From: Pseudovirgaria hyperparasitica
Lineage: Eukaryota
Length of the DNA stretch: 64,000 nucleotides
Assembly (NCBI GenBank): GCA_010093815.1
Contig: ML996572.1
Reading direction: 5' to 3' (one strand)
The notes under the pieces are model-generated. The model had not been told where the DNA came from. It saw nothing but the letters and a program-made list of their open reading frames with translations, and made no database searches. How positions within the stretch are numbered: the stretch's first letter is position 1; the number at the start of each line of letters is the position of its first letter. The translations under genes were made by a program, and so were the position numbers. Positions 24,840 to 54,051 of the stretch are shown here, in pieces.

Positions 24840-25543
24840 CTATATCTCTATGGCTAGTGTGTTTACGCGTAGATGAGCTTCGCTAGACACGACGATATTC
24901 ATAGGTAGATTATCTATGTCGGTAGTTATAGCCGTATCTATCTTCGATACTACTCTAATATTAGCATCTAGAACTATATATATATATATATATGTCTAAG
25001 TATACTAGCTACGTCGTCTTCCATTTTAGTATCTTCTACGTTCTCTTTCTCCGCATGTTCCGGCGGTAACTATAACTATATCTCTATAGCTAGTATATTT
25101 ACGCGTGGATAAGCTTCGCTAGGCACGACGACATTCGTAGGTAGATTATCTATATTAGTGGTTATAGCTGCACCTATCTTTAATACTACTCTAATGTTAG
25201 TATCTAGAACCGTGTGTATATATATGTGTCTAAGTATACTAGCTACGTCGTCTTCCATTTTAGTATCTTCTATATTCTCTTTCTCCGCATGTTCTAACGG
25301 TAACTATAACTATGTCTCTATAGCTAGTATATTTATATATAGATGAGCTTCGCTAGGCACGACGATATTCGTAGATAGATTATCTATATTAGTAGTTATA
25401 ACCGCGCCTATATTCGATACTACTCTAATGTTAGTATCTAGGACCGTATATATATATATGTGTCTAAGTATACTAGCTGCGTTATCTTCCATTTTAGTAT
25501 CTTCTACATTATCTTTCTCCTTATGTTCTAGCGGTAACTATGT
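24840..25543 (-). repeat. About 3 x 234-bp tandem repeat (78-aa unit) in a RIPed minus-strand ORF truncated by the LTR
   Basis: Units start at 24840, 25076 and 25310. The ORF track shows the duplicated peptide MEDDVASILRH... Confidence 0.85.
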
Positions 25544-26299
25544 CTACGTACCTATACCTATAGTATCTATATCTAGTTTAGCCTCTGTTATATCTATAGT
25601 CGTAACCATCGGTACTAACTTACTATTTATAGCCGCGATATGCCAATTGAATTCTCTAGTAACGGTTTCCTTAACTATCCTATAGAGTATAGTAGTGTCT
25701 ATACCACTAGTTTTAAGCTCTATTACCACTTCTTTACTTACTATCTTAATAATAGTAGCCCTATATATATTATAACTTATTTTAGATATTAGGTATAGGC
25801 CTCGGAGGTACTAGATATAAGGCAGGAGGGCGCTAACGCTTAAGGCCTCTACACGTCGTATATGCGTGTTACGGTTAGCTATTCTATAGCTAGTAGTTAA
25901 ACTAGGATAGTCGTGACTCTCGTTATACCTATCTATTTCTATATACGACTTAGGCCATAGGTAGTAAGACGGCGTTAATGGCGATAAGATATAAAAACTA
26001 GATTTAGGTAGTAGGAGTTAAGTTACTACGTTTAGTAATTATAATGTAATTTCGATAAGTACGGAGGAAGTAAAGTATATAAGTAAATGTTTAATTATTA
26101 GAGTAGATCTTATATAATTATAGTCGTAGTAATAATATAGCTAGTAGGACCGGGCGTATCCCGACGTGAACTAGGTAGATACCGGCTTATACTAGTATCG
26201 TAACGTCTTAACCGAACATGTACGCTATAGTTATATAGCTAGTAGAATCGGGCATATACTAATATATAGTAGATAGAAGCCGTCTTACGTCGGATTATA

Positions 26300-27850
26300 T
26301 CGCCTTAGCCAAGTACGCACGCTACTCTTACTACCTCTAGCACCCTTTTTATTATTCTATTAGTCTTTAAAAGCGATATCTATATCCTCTATATCTAAGG
26401 TACTTTTAAGGCTTTTAAAGTTACTATCTTTAGAGCTCGTAGGTCGGTCTCGCGACTTCCCGGGTACCGATAGTAGTATATATAGTATTACTAGAGGAAG
26501 GGTTAAGTCGTTTAGGTAATACTATCTACTATCTATAATACTATCTCCGTAGGTATCTATACCGTCGTAGGCGGTAGCTTTCTATTACTATTATTATACT
26601 AATCGTAGCGAGTGTAGTATTAGGGACGGAGGGGCGGATTTATTCAAGCGTAACCTATATATAGCTATCTATACTATCATGTGTTAGTTACTGGTTTATA
26701 TTTTATTTTACTTCGGGTATACTATCTATATCCTATCTAAGGCTAAGGAGTATTATACTATTACTATATTCTAGGACACATTCGATTACTAACTATAGAA
26801 GCCATCTAATATCTATCTCTAGTTCCGTTTTACTTATCATATACTTGACCACTAGTATAATAGAATATATGGTAGCACGGCTCTAGTTAAGTGCCCTCCT
26901 AGTCTTTATTACGTATTAGACCCTAATTTACCGTATGAATACTATCGAATTAATACACGAAGCGTCGCTATAGTCTTTCTACTAGTTAGACGTAGGTACT
27001 AGTATTTCGAGGAATGCGTTATCGTCGAACCTAATTATAAATTTAATTTTTCTCGTAGTATATACGTTAGTAGGCTGTGAGACTACTACGAGTATAGACT
27101 ATAAGGTCATGGTATACGAGAGCTATAAGGTCGTAATAGGCGGGGGTTATAAGATCGCGATAGGCGGAGGTTATAAGGTTATAATAGGCGGGGATTATAA
27201 GATCGTAGGATGCAGGGCTATAATTACACGCCTCTTCTTATACTTAGAGATAGTTTTTCTATAATATATAGTTTTCTATACTATAGTATATACCTAGTCG
27301 TAGATATAGTATAGCGCCTTTATCTCTATGCACTCTACTACTCTTTTCTATACTACTAGGAATTCGCCCGCTACCTTATTAATAATCTCACGTACTCTTT
27401 TTACGCCGAGCTCGTTCTTAGTTTAACGTCTATAGTCTACGAGTAGAGTAGCCATATATACTTCTATATATAGCTACCTTATACGCGCCTCTATAGCTTT
27501 ACGCTTTACTTATATATCTAGGCTTAAGATGCGAAGTAGTACTATGGTAATTACTATATTCGGACGGTTACTTTGTTATAGAATTGGATTCGATATATTA
27601 ATCGTATATAGTTAACGTACGTAGTTAATATAGTATTTATAATTTACGGACTAATTATATAGTATATACGTAGTATATCGTGGGCGTAAGGAAGACGGAG
27701 GTATAGGTTAGACGATAGAGATAGAAGCCGGAATAATGAGGTACCTACTAGGTGAACCTCGTTTATGTTCTTATTATTCCTTAAACACGCGTTTATAACA
27801 CGCACGTGACTTAGCGTGGCGTAGTTAGGCGTGTAGTTATTCACTTTATA
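26300..27850 (-). pseudogene. RIP-degraded unknown ORF with a 21-bp PPIxxLQ repeat (about 27100-27200)
   Basis: Long minus frame interrupted only by RIP-type stops; no recognisable domain. Confidence 0.35.
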
Positions 27851-28610
27851 TCGTCTAATACCCTTAATAGAATTAGATAGCCATGATTCTTATCTCGCAA
27901 TATTATATCGTAGACGACTACGTCTAGGATAGTATATGGCTACGCATGTACGAGGTGCCGCGTTAGTCTTATCCCATTTTATATTTATATACTTATCCCT
28001 AGGTACTCTCCGAGTATTATAAGCCTATATTTCATCGTATTCGAGTGTCGTATCCTTCTATGCTTTTAAAGTACGCGATATTTAGGTTTACTATATCCCG
28101 TATATATTATAGTTAAAGTCTAAAGGTAGAGGCTTTAATTAGGGCGTATGTTTTTTTATATTTTCTCTTTAGATAGTAATATCTCCCGATATAAAGGCTA
28201 GAAGTAGTTTTAAAAGTATAAAGGGGATAACTAAAGGAAGCCTACGTTATTAGGCCGGGGCTCATAGTAGATATAGAATCGTGTTTATTTCTTAATCGGT
28301 AGGTACTAGTTAACGTACCTAGTGGCGCCGTATTATCTAATAGCGCGTCTATACTAGAGTAGACGTAATAGAAATACCCTTAATAGGTCTTTAATAGAGC
28401 TAAACTATCTACCTAGTAGGATGTCGTGACTATATCTAAAATAGATATAGAGGTATACTTACTAAGAAGCCGTGACTAAGTAGCTCTAACACGTGAGTCT
28501 AATCGTATACTATTACTAATTAACTTCTATATCTTTATATATCGTAATACCGCCGTCTCGGTCGGTATCCTCGTAGTCTCTATCGTTCTAGCCGCTAGTA
28601 GTTACTTTAT

Positions 28611-28697
28611 TAGTAGTATTAGCTCTAGTAGTATTAGTTCTAGTAGTATTAGTTCTAGTGGCATTAGCTCTAGTAGCATTAGCTCTAGTAGTATTAA
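28611..28697. repeat. 15-bp tandem repeat (about 6 copies) in the helicase C-terminal part
   Basis: (AGTAGTATTAGYTCT)n. Confidence 0.85.
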
Positions 28698-31600
28698 CTA
28701 GATTATTACTATTTATACGTGCTAGTAATTTAGTACGGCTAGGATAATAACACCGAGTATAACTAGTAGTCCTATAATTATAGTAAAACGTACCCGTAAG
28801 CGTCTTGGGTTTAGGGTAAACATTAGCTTTATAGCCGATGTTCTAATAGTTATTATATATAAGTATCGACCCTCTTGGATACTTAATAGACTTATGTCCT
28901 TCGACGTTATATTTATAGTAGACTAGCGGCTTACGGGGCTTAGTACTATCGGTAGTTTATTAATCGCTTTATTCTCCCCTCTCTCTAATACTAAGTATAG
29001 AGCGACCATATTAGGGATTAGATATATTAGAGAGTAGAGGGAGGCCATCTAGGTCGGGGGTCGTGCACGTGTATATCGCATGAATCTTAGAGTACTTATT
29101 CTATATCTCGCTAAGTACGCCGTCTAGAACTTTCTACCTCTTAAGAGATATAAAGTTAGCGATAATAACTATTATCTATTTAGCGCGCGTGATAGTAACG
29201 ACATTATGGTTTACTTCCGAGAGGAAGCCGAAGCGATTGGTTTAGACCGGGTTAATAAGGACTATATTATTATTATAACCCTAAGAACCGTCCTATGAAC
29301 GCTATTAGATAAGCTTCTATACCGGCTTAGGTAGGGCATTAAATCGAGCTTTATCCGCTGCGATAAGTATAGTTAGAAGCGAGTTCCTAACTATCCCTTT
29401 AAATAGATCACGTTAGGCGGCGTATATAGAAATATAGAGTACGTAATCGAGTGCGACGCTATAACGGAAGAGCTTAGTAATAATCTACTAAGTGAAACGT
29501 AATAAGTCTATGTTATATATTAAGTTATTTACCGTGTACGCGTGATCCCTATCGACGTTAGCATATACAACGTGTTAATAACCGCGGATTCCAAATATTT
29601 ATCGAACGGTCTCTGCGAGTAGTATATCGATATTATTCATTATATAGGGCGAGGTCGTTAGCTCGCCCGAGTAAGTAATTAGCGATATAACGTTTATTAT
29701 TCTAGAAACTAAGCGTTCTAACTCGGTAAGGCAAGTAGTTAGGAAACTATATTATATCTAGCGCTTTATAAAGGAGATCCTCTAGTTCGCGGCCTATATA
29801 TTAGTACTATTACACTAGTAGGTGTCGAGCTAGCGTGGGTCGCCGACGTAAACAAATATTAGTTACCATTCTATAGTAGTGTAATTAACGATAATTCTAA
29901 GTATATTACTTTTAAGGATACGCGTAGCCTCTTCTATTATAACTAAAATCGGATATATATTACGGGCTACCTTAGTAATATTCATAATATATAGGGTCCC
30001 TATATAAATCTAGGCGTAGATAGTAACTAGGTTCTAGGTAGCGAGGTATAGCTCGTTCATCCTATTATGCTCCTCCTTAGGCATGTCCTTATTATAAGTA
30101 TAACGTTTATAGATAGTACGTAATGGCCGAGCCGTTTCTTTCTCGAAATTCTTAGGGATCTATTTATATTAGTATTAAGATTTAACGAGTCCGATAACCT
30201 CGAGTATAATATAACTAGTATATAGTTTCTATAGATGAGTACGGGGATCCGTGCTATATTCCGATAGTTATTTACTATAGTCGGCCTAGGCTTACGCGAG
30301 GATAGTACCGCCTATTATATCGTCCTAGGTTAGCCCGATAAGAGGGTCGCCGCGACGAGATAGTCTAGCTATAGTAAAGAAAACCTCTTAATTAACGGCT
30401 TCGGGGCATCTTTAAAGAACGACCGGTATCTTTAGAGACTTATAGTAAGTAAATATATTACTTATATATTCATATGCTTTTCTTATAGCGTCGTCGTAGG
30501 TTTCGTTAGTTAGGCCGATAATAATATATATGTATATCCTATATATTTAGGTGGAACCTAGCGTAGGGAGGTGCGCTATCACATCGCTAGATAGGATGAC
30601 TACCTTAGTAGTATAAGCGATGATAGAAGCACCGTTCATTTTATTAATTAGAAGTGTAGCTAGTAGTAGACAAAGCCATAAATGGCTCTTCCTAGCTCCT
30701 CCATAGCCGTGAAGTAGGAACTAAGCCCTAAGTACATCTATCGCCTATGTATAGGTATACTATTATTAGGGAGATAGTTCCGAACGTATAATATCCTAGA
30801 GATTATAGAATCTTTTATAATCTTTAACGTAGCGGTTATAGTCGACGGGTTAAAGATTTAGGTAGTTATTACTAAGTATTAGGTCCTATATAGAGGGTAG
30901 TAAAGGGGATAGGACACTAGAGTAGACTTTAGATAATATTAGGAGTGTATGTATATCGGCGACGGGGCTAGTAATGGAACCTTCGTCGCTAATAACATCG
31001 TGACTATGTTCTATATTCGTGTCCTTATTATTATCTAGGGATATAGATAATTTAGAAAGAGTAATAAGGGTATCCTAAGGCTCCGTACTATAATCTAGAA
31101 TCTCGTCGTTAGGGTTAGGGGACCTATACATTAGAGATATAGATACCGAGTCTATAATAACATTAAGGACCATCGTATTAAATGCATTCTAAGCGGTGTG
31201 GTCGTCTACGCCGCCGTCTCTAGAAGCTTATACGGCGTGGTAGGTTAGTTTCTAGCACGTATTAATATATTACTTAGTAAGCTTATTATAGGTTTATACG
31301 CTAACTAAAGCCGGAACGTCCGTAAACCCTATAAGCGTAGTAAGGGACAACCCGATCGTACTTAAACTAGTATCGCTAGTCCGAATAAAATATTTAGGAC
31401 GAGCTCGAGTTACATTAGTAACTATATCCATTAATATAATCGGTACCTTAGATACTTTAGGAGAACGCCTAACCTTATTAAAGACTTTTAGAGCGAGGCA
31501 TTCGAATAGGAGGACGCCTAGGTAAAATTAAAGGACTTTAAAGCGGTATACGTCGTTATTATAATCCTTTGAATCTACTTTAAGGTACCCACGACTACCT

Positions 31601-32692
31601 AGTTCTATACGATGGAATCCTTTCGCATCAATGGGATAGACGATAGCTAAGAGCGCCTAAGTAACACCTAAGAGCTAGATATACCTAACGGTAACGTCTT
31701 AGAATTAGGATAATAGAAGATCCGCCTATTCGTCTTATAAGGTACTTATAGCGATATATATTAGGTAGTTAAATTTCTTATCGAATAACTCGCGGTAGAG
31801 AATAGAGATCTAGGGCTAAGTGTCCGGCCTACTTATTATACCGTATTATATATAGGGAGTAGTAACTTCTATATACCATGAATTAATCGGATCGCTCTCT
31901 AGTTTAAGCTTATTATTAAAGCCGGTAAGATCTATAGGGTTACGTAGCGGTAGTAAGATACGAACTATAGTATAAGTACCTAGATCTTCGAAGAATTACT
32001 TCACTCGTTCATATATTATATTAGGTCCGACATACAACGGGATAGTAAAACCTATACTAAGAAGCTTACTAGCTATAAGTTTAATAATCTAAAAGTCGTG
32101 AGGGTCTTCGTAGAGGCCGGTGTTAATATATAGTATATTAGCTTTATCCGCTTCGCTTATAATAAGATTAGGAAGTTTAGAAAAATACTCGATAAAGTCG
32201 TCTACTTACTTAACCTTAAAGATCTATACTATAGGGTAGTCGGATAATAGGAGGATATTAGTACGATTAAAGCGGAGTAAGCTTATTAAGGATACTAATT
32301 TCCCTTTATTAATCTATTAGAAGCGAGCACGTAACTTAATCTAAGAGCGGTACTTAGAGAATTCAAGGAATCTATATATATAACTAATTAACTCTTCGAA
32401 GCCGTGACCTTTACTATAAGCCTTAAATACTACTAGCTTAAGCTCGGCTTGAGTTTTCGCTTATTCCTACTTAAGTCCATCTATTTCTCTACTAATACCA
32501 TAGATATTCCTAAAGGTTAACTATAGATCGCCCTATATAAGAGAGATCTAATAGGTGGCGTAAGTAGAAACGGGAGCCTTACTACTTTGGACCTTCTTAA
32601 GTTTATACTCGTCGTTAGGACGGTAGTTACCGGTAAGTATACTAAAGACGAGTGGTTTATTATCGGTCGAGACGGTAGTCGTATCGTAAGCT

Positions 32693-33000
32693 TCGACTTA
32701 AGCGTAAGGCTCGGCTTAAACGTAAGGCTCGGCTTAAACGTAAGGATTAGCTTAAACGTAAGGATCGGCTTAAACGTAAGGCTCGACTTAAATATAAGGA
32801 TCGGCTTAAACGTAAGGCTCGGCTTAAACGTAAGGATCGGCTTAAGCGTAAGGCTTGGCTTAAACGTAAGGATCGGCTTAAGCGTAAGACTCGACTTAAA
32901 CGTAAGGCTTAGCTTAAACGTAAGGCTCGACTTAAGTATAAGGCTCGACTTAAACGTAAGGCTCGACTTAAACGTAAGACTCGGCTTGAACGTAAGGCTT
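32693..33000. repeat. 18-bp tandem repeat (about 17 copies), EPHVQA-like in the helicase frame after back-mutation
   Basis: (CGTAAGGCTCGGCTTAAA)n variants, in register with the minus-strand helicase frame. Confidence 0.9.
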
Positions 33001-34249
33001 AGTTACGTCGAGCGTAGACTAGTTCTAAACATCGCCAAATATAACGAGTTCTTAATCTATATTATGAACTATAAATATAACCTCGTTAACTATTATATAG
33101 AATAGACCTTAAGGATTAATAGAGTCGAGTTCGACGTAGCGTTTATATATAGTCGTAATTAACACGGAATAAAGTATAGAAGGTAAGATTTAGGTTTAAA
33201 AACCAAGATAAGTAGAGAAAAGGTTTATAGAAGTTTTCTTTTATAATATAGGGACGACTAAAGGAAGCTAAGATTAACATAGGCTAAAGTAATAGTAGCT
33301 TAAGTAGTATATAAAGTGGGGTAGTATACTACTATTATATGAGTCTAGTAGCTTGCCGACTAAGTATATAGTACGTTATAGAAGGCTATCGAATCAGGGC
33401 TTAGGTGAATATAGGTATAAGTAAATAGTATTATATGAAAGTTTAACCGTCCGACACACTAACGCCATAGATACCGAGCCTATCTTCTAAATTCTACGGT
33501 AACTATCTCTTCTAGATAGTAAGATATTACTAGCTATACCTTACCTATTCTATTTATAGTAGAGATACTATATATCCGTTAGTATACTAGCGCACGTATC
33601 TAACTACCGCTTAAATATAACTTGCCTTATACTATAATACGTACTATTAAGCTAATATTATACTAATATTCATGGGTTCGTGTCTATAAACTCCTCTCCC
33701 GTAATATCGAAACCGGTAATATTATCTAGCGATAGGACTATATAAGAAGGAGGCGGACTTAGTATGTCTAGTTATATATAGACTTCTACTATCGCCTTAA
33801 TAACTACTATGCCGGTAGGCGCTTCCTCCCCGGCCCTAAATGGTATATAATATTAGACTTTTACACGTTCGCTCGAACTCTTAAGCGTACTAGTATTATA
33901 TATCGATTTATAAGGCGATTAGGTTATAATCGCTAGCATGTTAATATCGACGGGTAGAGTAGACGGGACGGCGGCGCTCGACTCTCCTAATATAACGTTA
34001 GCTAGCTAATAATATAATAGGTAAATATACTAGTCGCGTCGTTATTAACGTCTATCGTTTAAGTAGGTGAAGCATCGACTATATCTATATTAAGTGGACT
34101 AGGGCGTACCTATATACTATTAACGAAAGACCTAAATCTAGTAAGGTATCCGCCGTGTATATAATACTATACGTAACTAATAACCGAAAACCTAAGATAT
34201 ATAAATAGTATTATGTCCACGGAAGAGCGACGGTATTATACCGGTATAT

Positions 34250-35900
34250 ACTAGATATACCGGCATATATTAGTATACACCGCTTAGTAGTCGTAATATA
34301 TCGATATATACCAATATCTATCGGCGTATATATATCTCGAGCTTACCTACGCGCGCTAGATAGATGAATCCCGCTACTATACTCATAGCGCGACGTTCCT
34401 ATATAGTTAGATTATAGTTAATACGTTATAGTAGGCTTCTAAATATACTGTTTATATCGCCCACGCGGAAAACCACCCGATCTAGTCCTAAGCCTAGTAC
34501 CTATTTAATAGCCTACTATAATACCTAGTCTAAACTATCCTTACGAAGGATTATATTACTTAACTCGCTTAGTAGAATCGGGTACTCTAGGTAGACGCGA
34601 CCATGCCTATAACCGTCTACTTCCCCTAGTGTATCTATAGACAAGCTAATAAATTCTAATAGTTTATTTATACTAAGACCTACTATATCGTGTATTTTTA
34701 TACCCTTAATATTTAACGGCGTCGTGCTATTCTATATAGCCGTTATTAGTACTAGGGTAACCCGAGTACGATCGTGGATAAGAACTATAGGTATATATAT
34801 ATAACACGGCGGTACGGCTACCTTAGAAGATATAGATACTAGTAGTCTGATGGTCGAATAACTAGGTTAGCTAGATATATTAGGCGGGTTCGTAGGGTAT
34901 ATATAATATCACGACGGCTCGTCTAGCCCGGGGCATCGTTTTAATGTATACGATAGTATTTAGCTAACCGCCGCTAGTTATGCGTAAATACTAAGAATAT
35001 AGTATTAAGTTAATATATAGCATCTACCCGTGAAATAGTATAACTACCGTTAATAAATACATATTTATCCGCAACTATCTATAGGTAACACTCTCATTTT
35101 ATATGGTGGTCCTTTACTTCCTTACTACGTAGGGTTAGTAATAGGCTAGTAAATTCCTCCTAAATTAACTCTTCTATGTATACCCGAAGTTTCTACCTAT
35201 CGGACGCTCTAAATATATAAAGTAGGTCGAGACTCGCTTCTACTCGGCTATTTATTTGCGGCTGGCCGGACGTAGCTATAGATAGATAGAATAGAGAATA
35301 GTATATATTACTAGGGTAATAGAGAGACGAGACATGTATACTATATAATAGGCGTAGGTATAACACGTACGTTACGGCTATATTAACGCGAGTAGTCCAC
35401 ATAGTTATTAGTAATAACTTATTAATTTAATAGAGGCGGGGAAATATACGGCCGGCATCCGATCCCGCACTAATATAGAGCACGTGAAATAACGACATTA
35501 AATATATAATACTCTATATATAACGTTAAGTTTACCGGGCGATGGCCCTACTCCGGTAATACTATCTATATACGATAAAAGAGTAGCGTAGTATATAGAC
35601 ACGATAGAATAGTAGGCCGTCTTTACGACTACATGGATCTACCGCTAAAGAGGAATACTATGAGATCTAGTATATACTATTATAAATATACTATTATCTA
35701 TTATATTCAGGCATACTAACTCGGCGTACGCGAAATATAGATAACTACTAACCTATTATAGTTCGCTATCGTTCGAAGCCTAACGAGTAGAACCGAGAAA
35801 TAAATAGTAGAAATAGTTAGATATAAGAGTTTTTAGCGATTAGGGGATAGTCTAGATAGCTTAAGGGAAGGATAGAGGACCTCCGCAAAGCATGTGCTTA
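34250..35900 (-). pseudogene. RIP-degraded unknown ORF
   Basis: The frame containing ORF 35193-35402 continues for several hundred codons with essentially only RIP-type stops. Confidence 0.35.
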
Positions 35901-36829
35901 TGCGATATTAACATGCGAATATTTAAGAGAAGTATATAATACTAACTATTATCTCTATAATAGGTCGTTATCGATTAGTACTATCATTAAGAAGAGATAG
36001 ACGAGCGTAACGACAAATAATCATAGTAGTAAACCCTTATATTAAACACGAATAATGCGACGCATTAGTACGGTATATTTATCTATTATAAGAACATACA
36101 TCTAGTTACCGTAGTTTCTAACGGTCTATATAAGAACGTATATATTAATAATATAGTAATATAAGTCTAACTATACTTATAAGGCCAGGGAAAGAATAAA
36201 GGAAGAGAAGAAGAAACATTAGAAGGGGGAGATACTTAAGGAAGACGTTTCCCTAGTAAGAGCGTTATATACCCGGCACTTATTCATTAATAGACTCGTC
36301 ACGTACCTAACACTTACTTAACCATAGACTCGTTATATGCCCGGTATCTAACGAGGCATAAACGCGAATAATAAAAATATTAGAATCGGGTGCGAGCTAG
36401 GTCTAGTGGGCCTAGAGACATAGTTCGGATTTTAGGGTATTAATACATATAATCTATCTATATTAGGTTAATACTATCCGTGTCTAGTTCTACCCGTAAA
36501 CGAGGATCCTTCGAGTTCTATATACCCCTTTTAGAGGCGTGGAGTTTTTATACTAGCTAGTAATTATTAGGTAATAAGGAGATGTATCCCTAGATACTCC
36601 TTAGCTAAAATTATAGATAGTTATTAAATATAAGCCTTTTATAGAACTAATCGTAATAAACCACGATTATTCCTTAGAGATATTCTAGTATAGGATACGA
36701 CTATCGAGTGCTACTATATATAAACCATAACTTCCGCTATATACCGGCATATGCCGGTATACTACGGTAGGTAGCGGTAGATAGTAATAGACTTACGACA
36801 CGCGCCCGTGTTTTAATACTATAGTTACG

Positions 36830-41919: not shown

Positions 41920-42232
41920 TGTGGAAGGCCGCTCCTGCAGCCCCATATGTATGTGTCCCTGGCTCGATCACATGGCTCATTATATATTTAAGGAGGGCGT
42001 TTTCCTTGGTCATTCTGCTCGGCACGCTTCCCCCATCACGAATATTCGATAATTCGATCTTTCCTTATGTTCATGGGCCTCTATAGGTATTGATTATTAG
42101 GCTTAGCTATTGATAAATTGATTGAGAAGAACTCATAATACCTGGGAGAGATACTTGTGAGTTCGTCGCGACTACTATACTAAGAACACAGCCATTTATA
42201 AAAAGGGACATACGTGGCGATAGCTTATCATA
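41920..42232 (+). repeat. 5' LTR of copy 2 (313 bp)
   Basis: Direct repeat of 52902-53214. Confidence 0.95.
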
Positions 42233-42236
42233 ATTT

Positions 42237-42253
42237 TAGAGGTCGTACCCGGA
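42237..42253 (+). promoter_or_regulatory. Primer-binding site, probably tRNA-Gln (also at about 13775-13791)
   Basis: TAGAGGTCGTACCCGGA back-mutates to TGGAGGTCGTGCCCGGA, resembling the complement of a fungal tRNA-Gln 3' end. Confidence 0.6.
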
Positions 42254-42599
42254 CGGCGAACTTACAGGGGGAGATTAGGACTCCGAAACTAGCTCAGGGG
42301 AAGTATATGGCGTGCCTAATAAGGCAGTCTAGACTTACTAGATCGAAGCTACGAGTCCGGAAAACAGGGAGTCCGGAGTCGCTAGGGGCTAGCCTCTTAA
42401 AAGTAGCCGTAAAAAGCATGCGCATGCTAACACGGGTGATAGCGCGACTCGAAAATGTCTTAGGGGAATGGGATATAAAATAGGGCCAGATGAAGCAGTA
42501 AAGAAGAGTTTAAAAACGATAAATATAACCTGTTTAGTGCTACCATAGCTGTTATTCATAAATACGGCCACACGAGTACACCACTTTAGGAACGCCTCA

Positions 42600-45500
42600 C
42601 ACGAAGATAATAACACAAGTAGGATACCGTGAACCTTATATCGATGAAGACGATAGTAATAGTTCACCTTATAAAGGGATTAATCAACATGGAGAAGGGA
42701 TAATGGGTGTTATAGGTAGACGCATTAGGCCAACCTTTAGTCAAGGCAATCCCTTGACTAATAACCTTACCCCTAGCGTCTCCACTGGCACATCTACTGC
42801 TAGTAATGGTGCGATAGGAGCTTAAAACGACCTAGTAACTCGTAGAGAGATACTTAACTTCTTCGTAGCATTTGCGTAATAAGGAAGGATGGTACCTCTA
42901 CCTACCCTAGCCCCCGAGCGCTTTAAAGGAATAAACATTACGGCCTTCCTTCGGAAGTACGAGGACATATATATAAACTACGAAGTTCCGCCTAATAAGA
43001 AGATAACCTCTCTACCGTTATACTGCGAGGACCATCTCCGTCCTACCATTAAAGGAATGGGTGGGTTTTAGAAACAGTAGTGGGCCACGCTACGTGAAGA
43101 ATTATTAAAGGAATTCTCTCTATTTAACTCCGCCCTTAAGGAAGGCACCATCCACTTTATCCGAAAATACGTGGAAATGGTTAAAGTAGACCCATCCTAC
43201 TCTCTCCCCATATACTACTCCCGGTATCGTGTTATCACGGAGAAACTTACGGCTAAAGGAAGCCTAAGCTCGTATTCGCGAACAGAGCTCTTCCTAGAAG
43301 GGCTGCCTAATAGTCTTAAGGCTCGGGCTATAGAGAAATGTCAACTCACGATGGAAGCACACAGTTACGACTAGGTAATTATCTATGGCTTCGTATTACG
43401 AAAGGCCAGAGCACTTAAGGAACTGGCTCGTATTAATAAGCACTCAGCCGCATAAGAGCTGGCCACAGCCATATACTATAAATCAAAGATAGGGAGTAAG
43501 AAGACCAGCTTAGAAGAGTAGTCACATGAAGAAAGAAGAACTAATGAATTTAGCCACCCCTCTCTAGTCGAAGTACACGTCGCGCTAGGATCGGATAAGT
43601 TTAACGAGATGGTAGAGAGATTTAGTAAACTAGACCTTACGTTAATTAAGATGAAGTCCTACTTTGCCTCTAATCCCTTATTCTTATCCCTTAAGAAGTA
43701 CGAACCTAAGCTACTTTCGGCTATTATTAACCAGTAGGCGCGAAGGCTAAATCTTTTAACACACCTCTAAGCACGAGGCATGCCCATAGAACCAACGCAA
43801 GTTTATCCATAGAATTATACATAGAATAGAGAATACGTCTCCACCCGAGACTCCTAAGGAGGCGTTATAGCCTAGGATAGGCCTCGAAGACCGATTGTAT
43901 GCATTACGTGCGGAGGAGATCACCTAATATATAGATATCCGGAGATGGTAGGATACATTAGAGACGGATTACTAAATATTAACGGGGTGCGAGTGTTCCG
44001 AGGGCGTTTCGGGGCGAACGGAGAAGAAATCCCATTACTACCCTCCTTAGCAGGGCCATAAGCTACCCTATAAGCTATCCGGAACTACGTAGTAACGGTT
44101 TAAAACGGCCCAAGCTAGTACGGAGGGGGAGTGAAGGTTTCTACGTCCATAGTAAACATTAACGCTTTATAGGGAGTGCTAGTATATAGTATTAGTGTAA
44201 AACCTACGAAGGGTCCCTACCAGGCCTCGGCGGACAGCGATTCGGAAGAAGAAGTCACGTCGCCCGAGAGTAAGAAAGATAGATATATAGAATTCCACGA
44301 ACGCTTCGACGTGGCTAGTAATAGATATATCCGCGAGGAGATGGCCCTAGAAGAGCCCGCTATACTTATAATATCTAGAAGGGGGATTACGAAGAGTATA
44401 CCTAATCGTACTAAGGAAAGAAAGATCGCCCGTCTCCGCGGAATGCGTAAAGGGTAGTATATAAGGATTATCGAGGAATAGGAGGACGGCGAGAAGAGTG
44501 GCGACTAGGGAACGTCTAAATAAGAGCTAACGGCGCCTAAGGATAAGATGGATAAAGGGGATGGCCTAAATCCTAGTTAAAAGGCACGTATCTAAGGCGT
44601 TAAGCTTAATAACTATCTACGCGAGGGACAGCGGCTAAGCATAGAAGCTAGCGAAGCATGGCTGGTACGCGTTCTAGAGATAACTATAAATATCACTATT
44701 AGCGAACTATTAAGCCTTAATGGCGACTTACGTCGTGCGGTGTTCGAGAAGGGCGCCCCCGACTTTATGGCTAGAGAGGTCCGCGAGGCTCAAGAGGAGA
44801 GAGCCGAGAAGAAAGGAAGAAATAACCATACCATGGCTCCCGAGATAAATAAACTTAACGTATTAGCACCCCTCTATGCCACGGGGACGGCCATCACGTA
44901 ATAAGACATTAATTAGCTTAAAGAAGGGATAGTAAGGCTAGTAGCCGAGTGTCCGAGGTACCCCGTAGAAGTTAGTCCTAAAAGGGCGACTAGTATAGCA
45001 CTATTCGATAGTAGCGCGCAGGTAAATGGCATTCGACTAGATGCTACGAGGCGTCTTAGGCTAGCGATATCTTCGCTTCTACTATATATAAAGAACTCGA
45101 GTTTGGTTAGCGCTACTTAGCATAGCACTCTATTCGTGGGAATAGTGTGGTAATGCCCTATCCGCATAGGTCGGATCGTTACGGCCACTTCGATATTCGT
45201 ATGCAGCGAACTTAATCATGACCTCATCCTAGGGGAGCCATATACTAGGCAGGCCTTACTTGCGGTGCAGAGGTTAGCCTCCGGGCAAGTACTCTTAATA
45301 GTCTACTCCGCATATAGATAAGAACGTATAACCTTCGAAACTAGTCTAGACGAGTATATTCTAGTCTTAGAGAAGGAGGGTAACTCTATGGCTAGAGACT
45401 AACTATATAGCGGAGCATGTCGCTAGAAGCCGGAGTTAAGCCGGATTATTAGTTAAGGGCTGCCCTTAACTAATAATCCGCACTAAATGGGGTCCGGTAA

Positions 45501-48500
45501 ACCCACTAACGAAGGGGATAGGATATATTTTTGTGCGGATATAGAAATGAGTCATATAGAGTTGCTTTCCGAGAAAATCCGGCCTGAAAATGTTACTCGG
45601 TTATCGAGAAAAGATGACTTAGCCGCCCTAGTTACGGCGGTAAGGTACGCTGCCTTCGCACATAAATAAGGCACGATAATAGAATAGCTTATAGTAGGCT
45701 CCACCGGCCTCTAAAGACGGTATTCATCCGGGGTATCAAAGGGATTTAGTATAGCCACCATATATAAAAGAAAGGGAGTTAAAGTACACCCCGTGGATAA
45801 CTCCGAAGCCCACCGAAAGGTCCCTAGGAATCTATTAGGGTATCTAGACTAGCGTAAACGAGTAATCGCACGGCAGGCACTTCTTCCGGCCGTCTACCTA
45901 GGCCTTAACGCGTTTAATAGGCTAATAGAGCCTCGAAGGGTAACTATCCCGCTAGGAACACGTCTAACGCCTCTACGCATAAGTTAGCTAAAGATTAGAA
46001 TAGAGCTACGTCCCGCGGAACTTAAGTTACTATATATAATCTTATTACATCGCGAGGAAGCACTAGCATGGGAATTCTTACACCTTGGTAAATTTAACGA
46101 AGAGGTGGCACCTCCGCAGGAGATCCGAACGGTAGAACATAAGGCATGGCAGGCTAAGAACTTTAATATTCCTAGAGCCCTTCATGGGAAGGTACTTACG
46201 ATCCTAAAAGAGCGTCTTAATAGCGGAAGGCTCGAGCCCTATAGTAGTCCTTATTAAAACGCCTATTTTCTCGTGGAAAAGAAGAAGGAAGCTAATAAGG
46301 AACGAGATCATAGGTTAATCAATTCGGCGATAGAAATCAACCGAGTTACCATTCGTGATGCGGCCACGCCGCCCTCGTATAAAGAATTCTCGGAGTACTT
46401 CACGGGGATGGCCGTCTTAACGTTTACCGACTTCTTCTTAGGATATGATTAGATTCTATTGGCAGAGCATTACCGAGACTTAACGGGGTTTATGACGCCC
46501 CTAGGATTGCTACGCGGGATAATATTACCTTAAGGGGCCACTAATTTAGTAGCTTAGTTCGTTAGGATCATGTTAACTATCATGCAAGAACACATCCCGG
46601 AGAGGGCTCTGCTATTCCTAGATAACTTAGGCATTAAAGGACCCACGACGAAATATAACTCTAAGAAGGCCCTGCCTAGAATTCGTAGGTATATCCTAGA
46701 ACATTTAATTAACGTGGATAAGGTTCTCGCGGATATAGAGCGCGCCGGATGCGCCCTAAGTAGTAAGAAGACTTAGTAGTGTGTTAAAGCCGCCAACGTT
46801 ATAGGATACGTCTACGGCATTAAAGGGAGGCGACCGAGTAATAAAAAGGTTACTACTATTAGGGACTGGAAACCCTGTAAAAACACGACGAATGTGCGAG
46901 CCTTCCTTGGCGTTTATATATATTTCCGGATATAGATCCCCGGGTACGCTGTTATCGCATCGCCACTATTTATACTATTAAAGAATGAATCGGCCTAGTA
47001 GTGGATAGCCAAGGAGTAGACCTCGATGGACGCGCTAAAGATGGCTCTAACCACTGCTCCCGCACTAATAACGTTGCGGTACGGGATAGGTGCGGGAGAC
47101 ATAATCCTAGTAGTAGACTCTAGTAACGTTGGGTAGGGGGCTGCGTTAATATAGGAGAACGAGGATCGTAAACGTTAGCCATCGCGGTATAATAGAGGAA
47201 TATGGTCAAAAGCTAAGAGAAACTACGATACCGTGAAACTGGAGTGCCGAGCCCTCCTCCACGCGTTATAGAAGTTCCGGTAATATCTCTATGGCACGCA
47301 CTTTATTATAGAAACAGACACGAATACTCTAGTCGCTTAAATCAACCGCACCGTAACTAACTTGCTAGGGGCGCTCGTTACTAGATAGCTCGCGTGGATT
47401 TAGCTATGGAACTTTATAGTTAGGCACGTACCTAGGAAGCGTAACGTAGTCGCCGATAGTATCTTACGGATGCACGAAGGAGAAGAACTACCAGACGTCC
47501 CTACCTTTAACCTAGACGAGTTCGTGGACATGGCTCTATGTATAGACGTGCTAGAGACGTCGTTAATTAAGCCTATTAGCGGGAGAGATTACACGATAGG
47601 GACACTCGACTATGCCGCTATTAAGTCTCCCTTAATAGATGAATATGGCGATAAATGGTAGAGGATTACGAAGTATCTTACTATACTCGAGAGGCTAACC
47701 GACCTAACCGACCGAGCGTATAAGGCCTTTATAACCGACTGCCTAAAGTTCCTCGTGTATGACTAAATACTCTAGCGGAGAGGAGATGGGCATCGCTAAC
47801 ACACACGAGTAATTAAGGATCCGAATACTAGGGCGCGCATAATCACTACCACTCACGACGAGATAGATTATAGAGGTAGCGAAGGGACCCTCGGAAGGAT
47901 TAAGGATAAGTATTGGTGGGTAGGTATGCGTAGAGACGTGCGATAGCACGTGAAAACCTATAACGAATGTTAACGACGAAGTAAGCTCCTCGGAGGTCTT
48001 GATAAAGGGCTCTACTACATTATAACGCCTGTTCTTTAGTAAAGAATGCACTTGGACGTAACGGCACTACTACCTTCTATAGGGTATAGTAAAGTGGTAT
48101 CCATACGAGAATAGCTAAGCGGATGGACTAAGGCGGAGGCATGTATGGCGGCCACGTCCATAGTCGTCGTAAAGTTCCTCTTTAAGAACGTGATCTATAG
48201 ATATAGAATCATTCCTAAAATCACCTGTGATGGTGGTAGAGAAAATATAGGTGCCATAGAGGAGCTCCTCCGACTCTATAGAATTTATTAGAAGGTTACG
48301 TCTGCGTATAATCCCCGAGCAAATGGGATTATCGAGAGAAGTTTTATACTACTCGCTAATGCTCTCGCGAAGATAACTAATGGCGGATTTAAGAACTGGC
48401 CCGACCACCTCCATACGGTCGTCTAGGCAGATAGAATAACGACACGTGCTAGCATAGGGTATAGTACCGCATACCTCGTGCTCGGCCATAAACCAATCAT

Positions 48501-49113
48501 GCCTATCGAAGTCGAATTCGAGTCGCTCCGAATACTCCCTTAGGACGAGGTGCGATCGACGTCCGACTTACTCGCTCTTCGAGCTAGATAACTTAAGAGA
48601 AGATCCGAGGATCTTAAGGAGGCCTATGCCTACGCGACACGAACGCGTGAGGAATCGAGAGAGGCATAGAATAACGACCATCACCTTCGTTAAGAGTCGT
48701 TACCAGTCGACACGATTATCCTCCTATACGACTCGCAGCGATAGAAGGATATAGAGCGGAAGCTAAGGTAGCATTAGAGGGGGCCATACAGAATCCAGTC
48801 CGTGTTTAATTATACTTATAAGCTCGCGGAGCTTCATGGAGCCATGCTTAGAGGGACGTTTCCTAGCCATAGGTTAAAGAAATATTTCATAAGAAATACG
48901 AGTAACGAGAGTCACGACGAGCCCTCGCGACCACCAATCGGAAGAATTACCGAGGAAAATAAGGAGAGTGGCGATAAGGAAAACTATTATAAATAACTCA
49001 CGGAACACCTTGACGACGCCACACGAACCCGGGTGGAAGTGGTGATTCCTACTCCGCAAGGCTTCAATAGAGAGGAATATTTACGTTTCCCTAGAATCGA
49101 CATCTCCTTCTAG
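42600..49113 (+). pseudogene. Single-frame gag-pol of copy 2, no chromodomain seen
   Basis: Zn knuckle CITCGGDH (about 43900), protease ALFDS[G]AQVN (about 45000), RT FLD[D]LGIKGP (46615), RNase H DSSNVG[W]GA, integrase HHCC region (about 47850-47970). Start approximate. Confidence 0.92.
45445..45477. promoter_or_regulatory. 33-bp perfect palindrome, site 3, between PR and RT (function unknown)
   Basis: ATTATTAGTTAAGGGC-T-GCCCTTAACTAATAAT; extends to 39 bp with CGG/CCG. Confidence 0.6.
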
Positions 49114-49769
49114 GGGACAGAAGTTTTTTTAAGGAGGGAAGGGATGCTTGTAAAAGTAGTCTTATGACGATGAACTCCATTATCGAAAGAGGATGATGAA
49201 CCCTATCATTACTATAAAATAATAAAACCCATTATTAAAGCAAGCAATGCTCGAAAGAAGACATAATGGCGTTTACGCGAAATTCCACCTACCACACATT
49301 GAAACCGGTCGTGTAATCGAAGCCCACCCATCGAAGGCCCATTTTATTACTATAGAACGGGCCCCGTTAGGAACTAATAAGGAAGAAAAGAAGGAGAAGG
49401 TATAAGAGAAAAAGATACTTATAGGAAGTCTCATGAGGATGAGAATATACCCGGTATCTATTCATTCATAGATTCCGCTATATACCCGGTAGACACATTC
49501 ATTCATAGATTTCCTATGTACCTAGTACATATTCATTCACAGATTCGACACGTATACGGGCCTACGGCCGTTGGCAAGGATCATTTATAAAAATCACTAT
49601 ATACCCGGCATTCGAGGAGGCATAAAAAAGAGAACTCAAGATAGCATACAACTCTTCCCTCTTACACCTCTCTATACCTCCTTAATCGACAAAACCTCCT
49701 CCTCCACTTCCGCCTCGCTTAAACCACCTCTCCTTAGAACGCAACTCGCCGATAGAACCAATAATAATA

Positions 49770-52703
49770 ATGGCCCCGCCGAAGAAGAAAACGCCTACCC
49801 ATAAAGAGTCATAAGATTGTTAAGCACTAATAAGATAGACGCGGTCCTAGTCAAGAGTCGTAAGTGCTAAAGCAGGGCCATCGACGGCTATCGTGGTATC
49901 GAGGCCATCTACTACTCCGCACGGATAGGCTATAGAAGCTACGGAAATAAATAAGTCTACTATTAACCGAATTATCGCCATCTAGGACCCGTAAGAGCGA
50001 TAGGACTATATTCTAGACACGTTTAATAATCTCCTTCACATCACTAGCCTCGTAGAATAGCTCTTAAGTAGTATAGTTAACCTCTTCTAGAAAGCAGGAG
50101 CCGTAATAGGGTATAGTAAGGCAAAGATTGACTCCTCTATTCCGAAAGAAGTCCACGAGATAATTCGTTGTGGAAGAGATACTAACTCCCGCATCCTAAA
50201 AGCCAAAAATGCAATCCTATAAAACTAGCGAAAAGACCTCCCTAATGACGACGGCTAGTCACTCTAATCCGCCCTCGGACAGCTCTGGTAAATATAGAAC
50301 TTTATGGAAAAGCTAGTAGCGCTCTCACGAGTGCGAACATGGGCGAGAGCGAGGAACTAGTTAAACGTATCTCTATAGTCCCGAATCGGCCAGGGACAGA
50401 AGGGAAGGGGAATCAAGGTATATCTTTAGAGCTCTAATATCGATGCCGCCCTAGCTAGTAATAGTAACGAGGACGGCCTATCTCTCTAGTAACTCTCGAA
50501 CTACCCTAGCCGATAAAATAAACTAACGTTCCATAATAAGACGGGACTTATTATCCCCGCCAGTTAATAGTCACGGATAAGTAGAATGGTTTATAGGCCC
50601 GTCGAACACTACCTGTAAATTAAAGAGATAAGTACATCGCCTCCGCCTTAGGCCTTACCGTCGCTAAAACTAGTATAGGTAACGCCCGCGGTAAAGTCCC
50701 CTCCACGAAGCACGCCTCCTAGTTCAGTAGCACGTTATCTCTTCGAAGCTAGTCGTCCGTTCGAAGTAAGTATTTCTCCTACTACTACTAGTGAACGTCC
50801 CTTACCGGGCCATGCGAGAACGTCTTTAGTGCCCGTCACGGCCACGCCGATAAAACCCACTCGCGGACGTGCCTCATCTACCGGCCCTTAGTAATTACCA
50901 GGGGCGCCTACACGATAATCCCCGGTTATTCTTAGTTCGTACCCTAAGACGATGGCATCGGTCGAGGAAGAGGACGAGCCTAAGAAGTATTAATGCGCGC
51001 CTTTAGTAACGAAGACTTTTAAGGCAGCTATATTATTAAAGAAGAATTTCACGAGCATTAAGGGAATGGCCCTACTAGTGCGCTGGAAAGCGTAGATAGG
51101 TAACATGGCTATTCCGTATAAAGTCTACTATAAGCATTGCCAAGACGTGGCTAGAAAGAATGATATACTTATTAGCGTGTCCTACTTAAACCTAGTGGCG
51201 AGACTTAAAATAGTATATGAGTTTAGAGATAACGTGGGGGCCCTTAAAGTTTATAAGGACCGCTATACCTGGTTCGCGAAGTACGCGTGGCCACCTCATC
51301 CAATAGAGGCATTAGGTGTCTATCGTTACTAGGCCCTAGAGACCCCGAAGCAAGTTATTAATATTAAAACCATCCTTACTAGTATCGCATTTATGATTCA
51401 GAAGGAGGATAGTAGGATAGGCAGGTAACTCTTCGACGAGTGGGAACGTACCAGAAGTATTAATATTAAAGGGCTCTTCGAGCCACTTAAAAAGACGACC
51501 TCTATACTTAATAAGAGTATCCTAGAGCTCGCGAGGGATGAATTTAATATATACAAGTACCACCAGCGCATGTTTAATAAGAAATCGAACTACGGCTGGC
51601 TACGAACTGTATACCACTCCTACATCTAATAGTTTATTAGGTAATGCCCACTTTACTAGCTCACCTATATTGCTCTTCGGCCCGATCTTAACTACCATCT
51701 AATCTCGTACCCGTACTATGCGAAGTCCTAGGATAGGGGCGATAAGACGGGTTTTAAGCATCTCGATAACGCCATTAATCGAATCCTCGATCCTAGCGAT
51801 AGACACGGGTTTAATATAATCTAGGGAAGCATTAGTCTCGACGACGAACAAAGTAACGACTACACCATAATCGTTCCCCGCTTCTATAAGTTCTTAAACG
51901 AATGGTAGTCGAAGGCCAAGCTCCGCGAGGGGGTCAATTAAAACGGTATAATCACGGCTATTAACGATAAGATCTATAATGCGGACGATAGGAAACGATT
52001 TGGTCCCTTCGTCCCGGTCCCCTGCCAGTCCCTTAAAGTACGCATCTCTAGCCTACTAATAATGTACGGCGCCTAGGGTCCCGTAAAGGGTGGAAGATGC
52101 ACGATGCTTCCATGGTATATCGCGATTGGCCCTGATCACATGATAATGGAAGTGCCTGAAATGGGCATATAGGAACAACTCGCAGCAGCTCACAGGAATT
52201 TGACTCCGGGACCCACGTCTCCGTCGGGATTTTCCAATAAATACGGCGCGATTCCTTTTGCCTTCCTAGCCGCAGTTTAACTCCCGAGTTTTAACGCCGT
52301 TAGTAACGTATTAGTCGGCCGTAAAAGATAGGACAGCTAGGAGGTGAAAGAAGAGGTAGCTGCGTGGCTTAACGCAAGTCCTTAATAACTTAAAGCCAAG
52401 GTAGACGCCTAGTTCAAGGAGGGCTCGAGGGTATTCGTGGAGACCTTTAAGAAAATAGTAAGGTAGGAAAGGCTGGTCTATGGGGATAGGTCGTTCTAGA
52501 AGGAATTTAATAAGGCGCGCGCCGCTAAGCGGCTAATTAATTTTAAGAAATTCGAGCCCGACGCGGGCCTAGATAACGTTAAAGAGAACTTCTACGGATA
52601 AGAGAGGCCTAACGAACTATCCGACGAGGAGGAATCTAACCTCTCTAAGATAAGCGACACGATTCTTTAGGAGCTGGCTCGCGACCTCAAGTACTAAGAT
52701 TAG
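49770..52703 (+). pseudogene. ORF3 of copy 2: about 975-aa putative nuclear 2OG-Fe(II) dioxygenase (PhyH-like)
   Basis: Starts MAPPKKKTP. Contains TGFKHLD (H 51759, D 51765), I[Q]GSISLDDE...[C]TIIVPRF[H], M[H]GA[Q]GP and GR[R]TMLPW. All internal stops are TAA/TAG. The true stop is ambiguous (52697 or 52703). Confidence 0.8.
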
Positions 52704-52722
52704 GCGCCTGAAAACCTACCTA

Positions 52723-52755
52723 ATTATTAGTTAAGGGCTGCCCTTAACTAATAAT
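52723..52755. promoter_or_regulatory. 33-bp perfect palindrome, site 4 (function unknown)
   Basis: Lies between the end of ORF3 and the PPT. Confidence 0.6.
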
Positions 52756-52901
52756 CCGGGCTAAGGTTTACCCGCGCCGAGAGGTTTACTAGGGGCGCAT
52801 TTTATTCGTATTAAGGTCTTTCTTTTAGGCGTTCTTCACACGGTTTCTCACACGGTTACTATACTACTAAGGGTAGTAGTTCTATAGGCCGGGGAGGTAT
52901 A

Positions 52902-53214
52902 TGTGGAAGGCCGCTCCTACAGCCCTATATGTATGTGTCCCTGGCTCGATTACATGGCTCATTGTATATTTAAGGAGGGCGTTTTCCTTGGTCATTCTGC
53001 TCGGCACGCTTCCCCCATCACGAATATTTGACAATTCGACCTTTCCTTACGTTCATGGGCCTCTATGGGTATTAATTATTAGGCTTAGCTATTAATAAAT
53101 TAATTGAGAAGAACTTATAATACCTAGGAGAGATACTTGTGAGTTCGTCGCGACTACTATACTAAGAACATAGCCATTTACAAAAAGGGACATACGTGGC
53201 GATGGCTCATTACA
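52902..53214 (+). repeat. 3' LTR of copy 2
   Basis: TGTGGAAGG...CATTACA, followed by the TSD ATAG. Confidence 0.95.
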
Positions 53215-54051
53215 ATAGATACTAACTACTACGAAAAGGATAAGTCGGATACTCTAAACTAGTTCGATGAGTGCCTCGAATCATCTTATGCGCTATTAGA
53301 TATGGGTGAGAGTTCTATACTACTAGTAGTAGCTACGGATAAGATTATACCATCTCGGGTATTAAGTATAGACCCGCTCTAAGTAACCGCAGGAACGGTA
53401 AATGATAGTATGTATACATATAGTATAAATAAGTCTATTACTAACTTATTATCCCTAGTTATAGCTATCTTAACTAGTAGTCTATCTACCCCGACCAATA
53501 CTTAAATTAAAATAAAGTTAGATAGTGGCGGACGTTTAAGTCGGGTCTTTAACCTATATATAAAGAGTGTATACTTTTAAGAGAAGTCGGATATTAGTAT
53601 ATAGCTAGGGAACTATATAGACTACTACGAGGCCGAATAGATAATATAAGAGAGAATAAAAATAGTAACTAGAAATATAGAGGGAAGTGTCTAGTGGGAG
53701 AAAAGGTCATCAAAGGTAGTTCTAGATAAGGACACCTTTTAATAGATAAAGGATACCGCCTAAAGGTAGAAGAAAGGAAGGTCTACTATATTTTATTATA
53801 GCTATATAGTCGGAGAGAGCTTAGAATAGTACCATTTAATTTAAGTTCCTAGTCTAATTAATTTTTAACCTCTACTCTCTATTATATACTATCTTTCTAG
53901 TATTAAATTTAAAGACTATAATTAAATATACTAAAGATATAATTTAGAATAATAAGATATATAGAGTTATAGAGATACTTTAGATAAAGATATTACTTTA
54001 GAAAAGAGACTTCTATTAAAATAGATAGAGTATATAGAGTAGATAGAGTAG

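What the first reader, a model, noticed from the sequence alone, without database searches (positions are those of the whole stretch)
24840..53570. Possible giant multi-gene Plavaka transposon (more than 17 kb excluding the nested Gypsy)
Seen: 24840-41919 plus 53215 to about 53570 is uniformly RIPed and gene-dense. A Plavaka transposase heads a minus-strand train (unknown ORF, Upf1-like helicase, unknown ORF, 78-aa-repeat ORF), with a divergent DUF6532-like gene. Established: RIP needs a duplicated sequence and usually leaks only a short way. Inference: the whole block was multicopy, that is, one large cargo-carrying DNA transposon driven by Plavaka rather than by a Starship-type recombinase. 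I could not identify terminal repeats, and the left end is lost at the LTR.
Basis: partly seen in the sequence, partly recalled or inferred. Interest (0 to 1): 0.75.

Follow-up and report, generated by a model that had tools for sequence, protein, structure and literature searches.

The report
Dead 22-kb Plavaka transposon with helicases
This stretch is a cut-off, mutation-killed copy of a 22-kb fungal cut-and-paste jumping gene of a known group, unusual because it carries a helicase gene that an unrelated retrotransposon in the same genome also carries, plus a probable chromatin-motor gene and a partner gene of unknown function.

Summary
Confirmed, with corrected ends. The block is one copy of a ~22-kb DNA transposon with 26-28 loci in this genome. 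It has 26-bp TIRs (CATCAGG, mostly RIPed to CATTAGG) and 2-bp target duplications, so it is a PlavakaB element (PMC12730594). Its right end is at 54415, not 53570. The left 3.7 kb is missing because the left Gypsy is a recombinant. Plavaka, AAA_12 and DUF6532 are confirmed by Pfam. The 78-aa-repeat ORF is probably the start of a SNF2-like ATPase (motifs in order, weak statistics). The two unknown ORFs are unconfirmed. Copies differ almost only by transitions: a recent burst killed by RIP. Large, multi-gene Plavakas are already described; I found this cargo set in no paper. The same helicase family sits in a Gypsy here, under purifying selection, so it is a shared mobile-element gene. DUF6532 lies divergent to the transposase in 6 of 20 other Plavaka loci. 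The scan noted this family before, on other copies and in other genomes.

The parts
24840..54415 (.). Left-truncated copy of the ~22.1-kb PlavakaB element (positions 3734-22112 of the complete C26 copy), interrupted by a Gypsy
   Evidence: BLAST to complete copies, 92% and 97% identity; right TIR
13398..24839 (+). Gypsy copy 1; recombinant junction that removed the element's left 3.7 kb (flanks GTAG / CTAT, no TSD). Not part of the element
   Evidence: LTRs differ by 25 transitions, 0 transversions
24840..26520 (-). 5' part of a long ORF with three 234-bp (78-aa) repeats (24839-25541); in complete copies it continues into SNF2-like motifs I, II, III, V, VI. Upper boundary approximate
   Evidence: family call is moderate
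27198..28087 (-). Candidate unknown ORF, unconfirmed
   Evidence: low-stop segments LOD 4.3 and 6.5 in two frames; no Pfam hit
28516..33063 (-). Upf1-like SF1B helicase pseudogene, ~1500 codons: N-terminal 6-aa repeat (18 bp x 17.5, 32685-32999), P-loop at 30708, core ~29125-30525, three degenerate CCHC knuckles ~28725-28932, 5-aa repeat tail
   Evidence: AAA_12 E 7.3e-8
33300..35657 (-). Candidate unknown ORF (possibly two exons), unconfirmed
   Evidence: low-stop segments LOD 4.4-5.5; no credible Pfam hit
36946..40092 (-). Plavaka DDE transposase pseudogene: SSD at 39099, second D near 38760, DILH-type motif at 38367, FNFPK at 37902, E near 37824. Ends approximate
   Evidence: PF18759 E 2.2e-30
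41158..41595 (+). DUF6532 domain of a gene divergent from the transposase; its frame appears to run on across the Gypsy to about 53700
   Evidence: E 1.5e-6; 10 genome hits, all in this family
41920..53214 (+). Nested Gypsy copy 2 with 4-bp TSD ATAG (later insertion)
54052..54316 (.). Assembly gap where the C26 copy has a subterminal 18-bp tandem array
54390..54415 (-). Right 26-bp terminal inverted repeat, followed by TA

Best explanation
A PlavakaB (CMCT clade) cut-and-paste transposon of about 22 kb. SHOWN: it moved as one unit between 26-bp TIRs, left 2-bp target duplications, spread to at least 26 loci in a recent burst, and every copy found was then inactivated by RIP. This copy inserted into another repeat, took up two Gypsy insertions and lost its left 3.7 kb by recombination at the first. 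INFERRED from the family: the DDE transposase binds the TIRs and cuts and pastes. INFERRED from its conserved divergent position: DUF6532 is the element's second core gene, most likely a helper acting at the subterminal repeats, as TnpA does in CACTA elements (analogy recalled, untested). INFERRED from sharing and selection: the Upf1-like zinc-knuckle helicase is a mobile-element accessory gene that works regardless of transposition mechanism, most likely by protecting or remodelling element RNA against host RNA surveillance or silencing (about 50%). The SNF2-like ATPase would act on chromatin at the element or its target (about 35% for that role).
For: Colinear copies at 86-95% identity. Five two-ended copies without nested insertions are 21,942-22,363 bp. 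TIR pattern: 38 matches against 0 for the reversed control, two reading CATCAGG. 2-bp flanks match in 9 of 10 end pairs, three of them not TA. 45 of 45 empty-site alignments, for 6 of 8 copies tested, show exactly 2 extra bases. Copies differ by 6.1-7.5% transitions and 0.03-0.13% transversions. 35 of 35 PF18759 rows contain stops. Helicase versus its Gypsy relative: 1290 codons, 42% identity, transversions 189/152/401 by codon position, p 2e-32. DUF6532 upstream and divergent in 6 of 20 metagenome Plavaka loci. A SNF2 domain lies upstream of a Plavaka in L145/L147 (E 1.1e-5).
Against: No function was tested. The helicase P-loop reads GxGGARKS in this copy, which is not canonical. The SNF2 call failed Pfam and a host-gene HMM, and was weak by hhalign (E 0.003-0.015) and with a RIP-damaged profile (E 0.002-0.2). 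Between two subfamilies that ORF shows no third-position excess (56/44/58, p 0.34). No SF1 helicase was found beside any of 54 metagenome Plavaka loci, though only 16 are 8 kb or longer. One end pair (C9b) has mismatched flanks, one pair (C34) is 63 kb apart and may be two elements, and 3 of 28 helicase loci lack a transposase without a contig end to explain it. The six DUF6532 loci are about three independent lineages.
Confidence: 0.9

Rival explanations
1. The element is real, but the extra genes are passive captures of host DNA with no role in its life cycle (Pack-type cargo).
For: The SNF2-like ORF shows no purifying selection on amino acids between subfamilies (ratio 1.32, p 0.32). The two unknown ORFs are unconfirmed.
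Against: No close host donor: intact host SF1 helicases score only 9-12 bits against the element's helicase, and the quick tree joins the Plavaka and Gypsy helicases on their own long branch (composition bias flagged). The helicase is under purifying selection between two TE classes. 4 of 4 indels in the SNF2-like ORF keep the frame, against 1 of 5 outside it. All 10 DUF6532 hits lie in this family.
Confidence: 0.2
2. The helicase has a mechanical role in Plavaka transposition (DNA unwinding during excision or repair) rather than in counter-defence.
For: SF1B helicases include DNA-acting members (established knowledge). The element is large and carries a second motor-like gene.
Against: A Gypsy retrotransposon, which does not cut and paste, keeps the same helicase between pol and its 3' LTR. 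No such helicase was seen beside 54 other Plavaka loci, most of them short. CCHC knuckles suggest RNA binding (recalled).
Confidence: 0.15
3. The block is a segmental duplication, a nest of unrelated transposons, or cargo of a Starship-type element, with Plavaka as one passenger.
For: The window is a deep TE nest, and this copy has no left end and no TSD of its own.
Against: Complete copies have sharp shared ends, TIRs, 2-bp TSDs and unrelated flanks. The termini match PlavakaB. Pfam scans of the frames tested gave no recombinase hit, though not every frame was scanned.
Confidence: 0.02

Closest known systems
PlavakaB DNA transposons (CMCT clade; Kojima 2025, PMC12730594: part 1 of 7 of the text, passages, and 53 of 71 supplement hits seen)
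   Same: PF18759 transposase; termini CATCA..TGATG; 2-bp TSD; size. The supplement lists PlavakaB-1_GyCo at 24,396 characters and others near 19-22 kb (lengths read from cut markers).
   Different: The accessory gene described there is TET/JBP; I did not search this element for TET/JBP specifically, and no Pfam scan returned it. 'Helicase' occurs once in that text, for Helitrons. The supplement sequences were cut on display, so their gene content was not seen and may include this cargo. The host here is a RIP-active fungus.
Giant Plavakas of the red alga Bostrychia (bioRxiv 10.1101/2025.02.11.637652, passages; supplements closed)
   Same: 17.4-19.1 kb, three accessory genes, tandem repeats, accessory genes that move between TE families.
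   Different: Cargo is PAG1, a methylase-SET gene and a ParB-2OG oxygenase gene; 'helicase' occurs 0 times in that text.
Plavaka elements of Tuber (PMC12581995, one passage)
   Same: Ascomycete host, 2-bp TSD, TIRs.
   Different: Terminal motif CATAC; no cargo described in the passage.
Insect LINE-borne SF1 helicases (PMC5563155, abstract and outline)
   Same: A transposon keeps an SF1 helicase; that paper cites silencing suppression for it.
   Different: Those are of RNA-virus origin and fused to LINE ORFs. This one is Upf1-like (AAA_11/AAA_12 relatives), free-standing and has zinc knuckles.
Starships (recalled; listing only)
   Same: Large cargo-carrying fungal element.
   Different: Starships use a tyrosine recombinase. 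This element has a DDE enzyme, TIRs, a 2-bp TSD and a fixed gene set.

Membership tests
PlavakaB | Plavaka transposase (PF18759) | tested here: met
   E 2.2e-30; 24 loci over cut-off for the N-terminal part
PlavakaB | DDE triad with C(2)C and H(3-4)H motifs between second D and E | tested here: inconclusive
   D, D and E align with a Mycena Plavaka and are kept in the commonest variants among 14 copies; the first C and both H are seen unmutated in some copies, the second C reads Y in the variants shown
PlavakaB | Termini 5'-CATCA..TGATG-3' | tested here: met
   2 of 38 TIR matches read CATCAGG; nearly all others read the RIP forms CATTA or TATTA, and one looks spurious
PlavakaB | 2- or 3-bp TSD | tested here: met
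   9 of 10 end pairs match at 2 bp; 45 of 45 empty-site alignments show 2 extra bases
PlavakaB | Placement in the PlavakaB clade on a transposase tree | not tested
   reference sequences not available whole; nearest database hits 21-34% identical, all Agaricomycetes by name
PlavakaA | Termini 5'-TGT..ACA-3' | tested here: not met
Upf1-like SF1B helicase | AAA_11/AAA_12 core with motifs I-VI | tested here: met
   AAA_12 E 7.3e-8; 20 phmmer hits, 7 of 7 tested carry both domains; motifs in order
Upf1 orthologue | Groups with host Upf1/Sen1-type genes | tested here: not met
   separate long branch with the Gypsy-borne helicase in a quick tree; host genes not named individually
SNF2 ATPase | SNF2 N-terminal and helicase-C domains at family cut-off | tested here: inconclusive
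   Pfam negative; motifs I, II, III, V, VI in order by eye; RIP-damaged host profile gives 10 hits at E<0.01 against 0 for reversed sequences in the N segment, 0 against 0 in the C segment
Starship | Tyrosine recombinase as first gene; no DDE-type TIR/TSD pair | tested here: not met
   TIRs, 2-bp TSD and a DDE transposase are present; definition recalled

The most novel reading that the evidence does not exclude
Fungal transposons of both classes share an undescribed family of Upf1-like zinc-knuckle helicases that counter host RNA surveillance or silencing. A lineage of 20-25-kb ascomycete Plavakas combines it with a SNF2-like chromatin motor into a self-contained counter-defence kit, and DUF6532 is the missing second core protein of Plavaka elements.
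Probability: 0.3. Interest if true: 0.75.

Novelty: new variant of a known kind. Interest (0 to 1): 0.5.

Why it matters
The transposon type and its size are known. The gene content appears not to be, in the searches made. A helicase kept under selection by both a DNA transposon and an LTR retrotransposon is a concrete candidate for a transposon-encoded counter-defence factor in fungi that silence repeats, and it can be tested. Tying DUF6532 to Plavaka gives a likely role to a large fungal domain of unknown function. The family fills about half a megabase here (26 loci, up to 22 kb each), so similar elements may make up much of the unclassified RIP-degraded repeat DNA in ascomycetes.

Tried and rejected
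Searches for intact close relatives failed. The helicase gave 0 hits among 8000 candidates, only 21-29% SF1B hits among cluster representatives and 0 of 128 metagenome stretches. The transposase gave 1 and 5 distant Agaricomycete hits. RIP damage to the queries limits all of these. SNF2 tests: Pfam negative, full-length host HMM negative, hhalign weak, no similarity to the L147 SNF2 gene. The opposite strand of that ORF is also fairly open but gave only a 10-residue chance hit. The two unknown ORFs gave nothing in Pfam; their plus-strand frames were not scanned. The 175-bp inverted repeat 13224-13398 / 58038-58212 is not a TIR of this element: it matches another repeat. The missing left end was sought by its expected flank among the left ends held and not found; not all left ends were fetched. 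The ESM Atlas only returned DUF6532 itself for an intact segment. The careful helicase tree did not finish; only the quick tree is cited. P. nodorum X3X3R8 (PMC3017866, passages) also has SNF2-like genes in a RIPed repeat but is described as an endogenous cluster, and no link was tested.
Full report
Observation. The window has a gene-rich left part (1-12 kb, GC 46-56%, negative RIP index) and a RIPed repeat nest from about 12050 onward. The block 24840-41919 has a composite RIP index of 1.1-2.0 in every bin. Read with X at stops, it gives Plavaka (PF18759, E 2.2e-30) and AAA_12 (E 7.3e-8) on the minus strand in one frame, and DUF6532 (E 1.5e-6) on the plus strand at 41158-41595. The 234-bp repeat has three copies. 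The nested Gypsy is 41920-53214 with the 4-bp duplication ATAG.

One element. Pieces of the block match many places in the genome: 33 rows for the transposase side and 43 for the helicase side. I merged these by hand into 26 and 28 loci, leaving out the 7 rows from two diverged loci treated below. In 21 of 28 the helicase and transposase lie on one strand, in the right order, within 40 kb; 4 of the other 7 are at contig ends and 3 are unexplained. These counts are lower bounds. Fetched copies are colinear over 21.6 kb and share sharp ends. The ends are a 26-bp inverted repeat found 38 times, against 0 for the reversed control; two copies read CATCAGG and one match looks spurious. Five two-ended copies without nested insertions measure 21,942-22,363 bp. 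The two bases outside the ends match in 9 of 10 pairs: TT, AA, CG and six TA. One pair mismatches, and one TA pair is 63 kb apart and may be two elements. Because TA is common in RIPed DNA I also tested empty sites: for 6 of 8 copies an unfilled homologue was at hand, and 45 of 45 alignments show exactly two extra bases. Subterminal arrays of about 20 bp (left) and 18 bp (right) flank the TIRs.

This copy. Its right TIR is at 54390-54415, past an assembly gap that covers the 18-bp array. It starts at position 3734 of the complete element. The Gypsy at 13398-24839 has flanks GTAG and CTAT, which RIP cannot reconcile. The Plavaka's right flank is an internal position of another repeat, and the matching left flank was not found in 12001-13401 or beside any left end held. 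So the left 3.7 kb was lost by recombination between two Gypsy copies, or by mis-assembly at the LTR; I cannot separate these.

Age and state. Eleven copies differ pairwise by 6.1-7.5% transitions but 0.03-0.13% transversions. They were nearly identical until RIP, which points to a recent burst. All 35 PF18759 rows in the genome contain stops. A second subfamily (C7, C17, C9, C34, C30) differs by about 5% transversions in the left 5.5 kb and 0.3-0.65% elsewhere, so it is a chimera.

The helicase. It is about 1500 codons, with SF1B motifs in order. The 20 representative hits are 21-29% identical, and 7 of 7 tested carry AAA_11 and AAA_12. The C-terminus has three CX2CX4HX4C-spaced units; 5 of the 12 ligands are seen unmutated in at least one of 10 copies and the rest read Y, the RIP product. 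Two diverged loci (C15, C4) hold a full-length relative at 38-42% amino-acid identity. Both loci are bounded by TG..CA repeats with 5-bp duplications (ACCAG, CAATG), and carry RT-RNaseH and Tf2-type SH3 hits upstream of the helicase. Between the two carriers, transversions fall 189/152/401 on codon positions 1/2/3 over 1290 codons (p 2e-32). The protein-guided alignment biases this somewhat, but the excess is large. A quick tree joins the two on a long branch away from eight host SF1 genes, with composition bias flagged. The helicase is therefore a selected gene shared by two TE classes, and not a recent capture from this host.

The 78-aa-repeat ORF. In complete copies it runs about 1550 codons toward the left end. 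Prompted by earlier notes on other genomes, I read SNF2-like motifs I, II, III, V and VI in order. Statistics are weak. Pfam and a host HMM miss it; hhalign gives E 0.003-0.015 in the right frame, against 0.56 or worse in all others. A RIP-damaged host profile gives 10 hits below E 0.01 against 0 for reversed sequences in the N-terminal segment, and best E 0.13 in the C-terminal segment. Between subfamilies 4 of 4 indels keep the frame, yet there is no third-position excess (56/44/58, p 0.34). I put the SNF2-like identity at about 75%, and its function as open. A SNF2 domain (E 1.1e-5) lies upstream of a Plavaka in one metagenome pair, L145/L147, in the opposite orientation and not detectably related to this one.

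DUF6532. All 10 genome hits lie in copies of this family. A metagenome scan gave 54 Plavaka loci. For the 20 with upstream DNA I tested minus-strand stop-free segments of 105 aa or more (83 of 84 listed, plus one near-duplicate left out). Six loci have DUF6532 upstream and divergent, as here. Four of the six are close kin, so this is about three lineages; short exons would be missed. The term occurs in one paper of the library, in a list beside Plavaka and KDZ without comment. It looks like a core partner gene and not cargo.

Comparison. Kojima 2025 (PMC12730594) defines PlavakaB by CATCA..TGATG termini and 2-3-bp TSDs; this element meets both. Its supplement holds families up to 24.4 kb, so size is not new, and I could not see their genes. 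Red-algal Plavakas of 17-19 kb carry three accessory genes that also move between TE families. Plavakas are reported from Tuber. Eight literature searches returned no description of a Plavaka with an SF1 helicase, SNF2 gene or DUF6532; the library lacks most subscription papers, and Iyer 2014 was seen only as cited. That the host is an ascomycete is inferred from RIP; I did not test it.

Verdict. This is a member of a known group with an apparently undescribed gene set, in a dead and truncated copy. The scan has noted the same family on other copies here and similar elements in other genomes; these are leads, not support. Interest 0.5.

Noticed in passing
G000 C15:785419-839749 and C4:1051881-1167207 (L041-L049, L008, L101, L102): A Gypsy family, two fragmented copies with 5-bp TSDs, carries the same zinc-knuckle Upf1-like helicase family between pol and the 3' LTR.
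   Followed up: yes
G000 C7:1.63 Mb, C17:38 kb, C9:1.464 Mb, C34:78 kb, C30:110 kb (L053, L088-L090, L094): A chimeric subfamily of the element: the left 5.5 kb is about 5% diverged in transversions, the rest under 1%.
   Followed up: partly
G000 C10:16947, C3:2316127, C2:20396, C1:3413454, C31:141642: RIP-damaged SNF2 domain hits near contig ends, outside this family; probably a separate subtelomeric repeat.
   Followed up: no
window 13224-13398 and 58038-58212: A 175-bp inverted pair from another repeat family, ending at the left Gypsy boundary.
   Followed up: partly
window 54416-56600: A further multi-copy repeat (26 rows) into whose interior the Plavaka inserted; not classified.
   Followed up: partly
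window 14275, 16986, 24288, 45445, 52723, 59189, 63976: A palindromic motif of about 33 bp recurs in several different LTR elements of the nest.
   Followed up: no
L145 and L147, about 5400-7300, minus strand: A degenerate SNF2-domain gene divergent from a Plavaka transposase in a non-RIPed metagenome contig pair.
   Followed up: partly
window 12050-13223: A RIPed stretch with no match over 170 bp among the loci held; unidentified.
   Followed up: no
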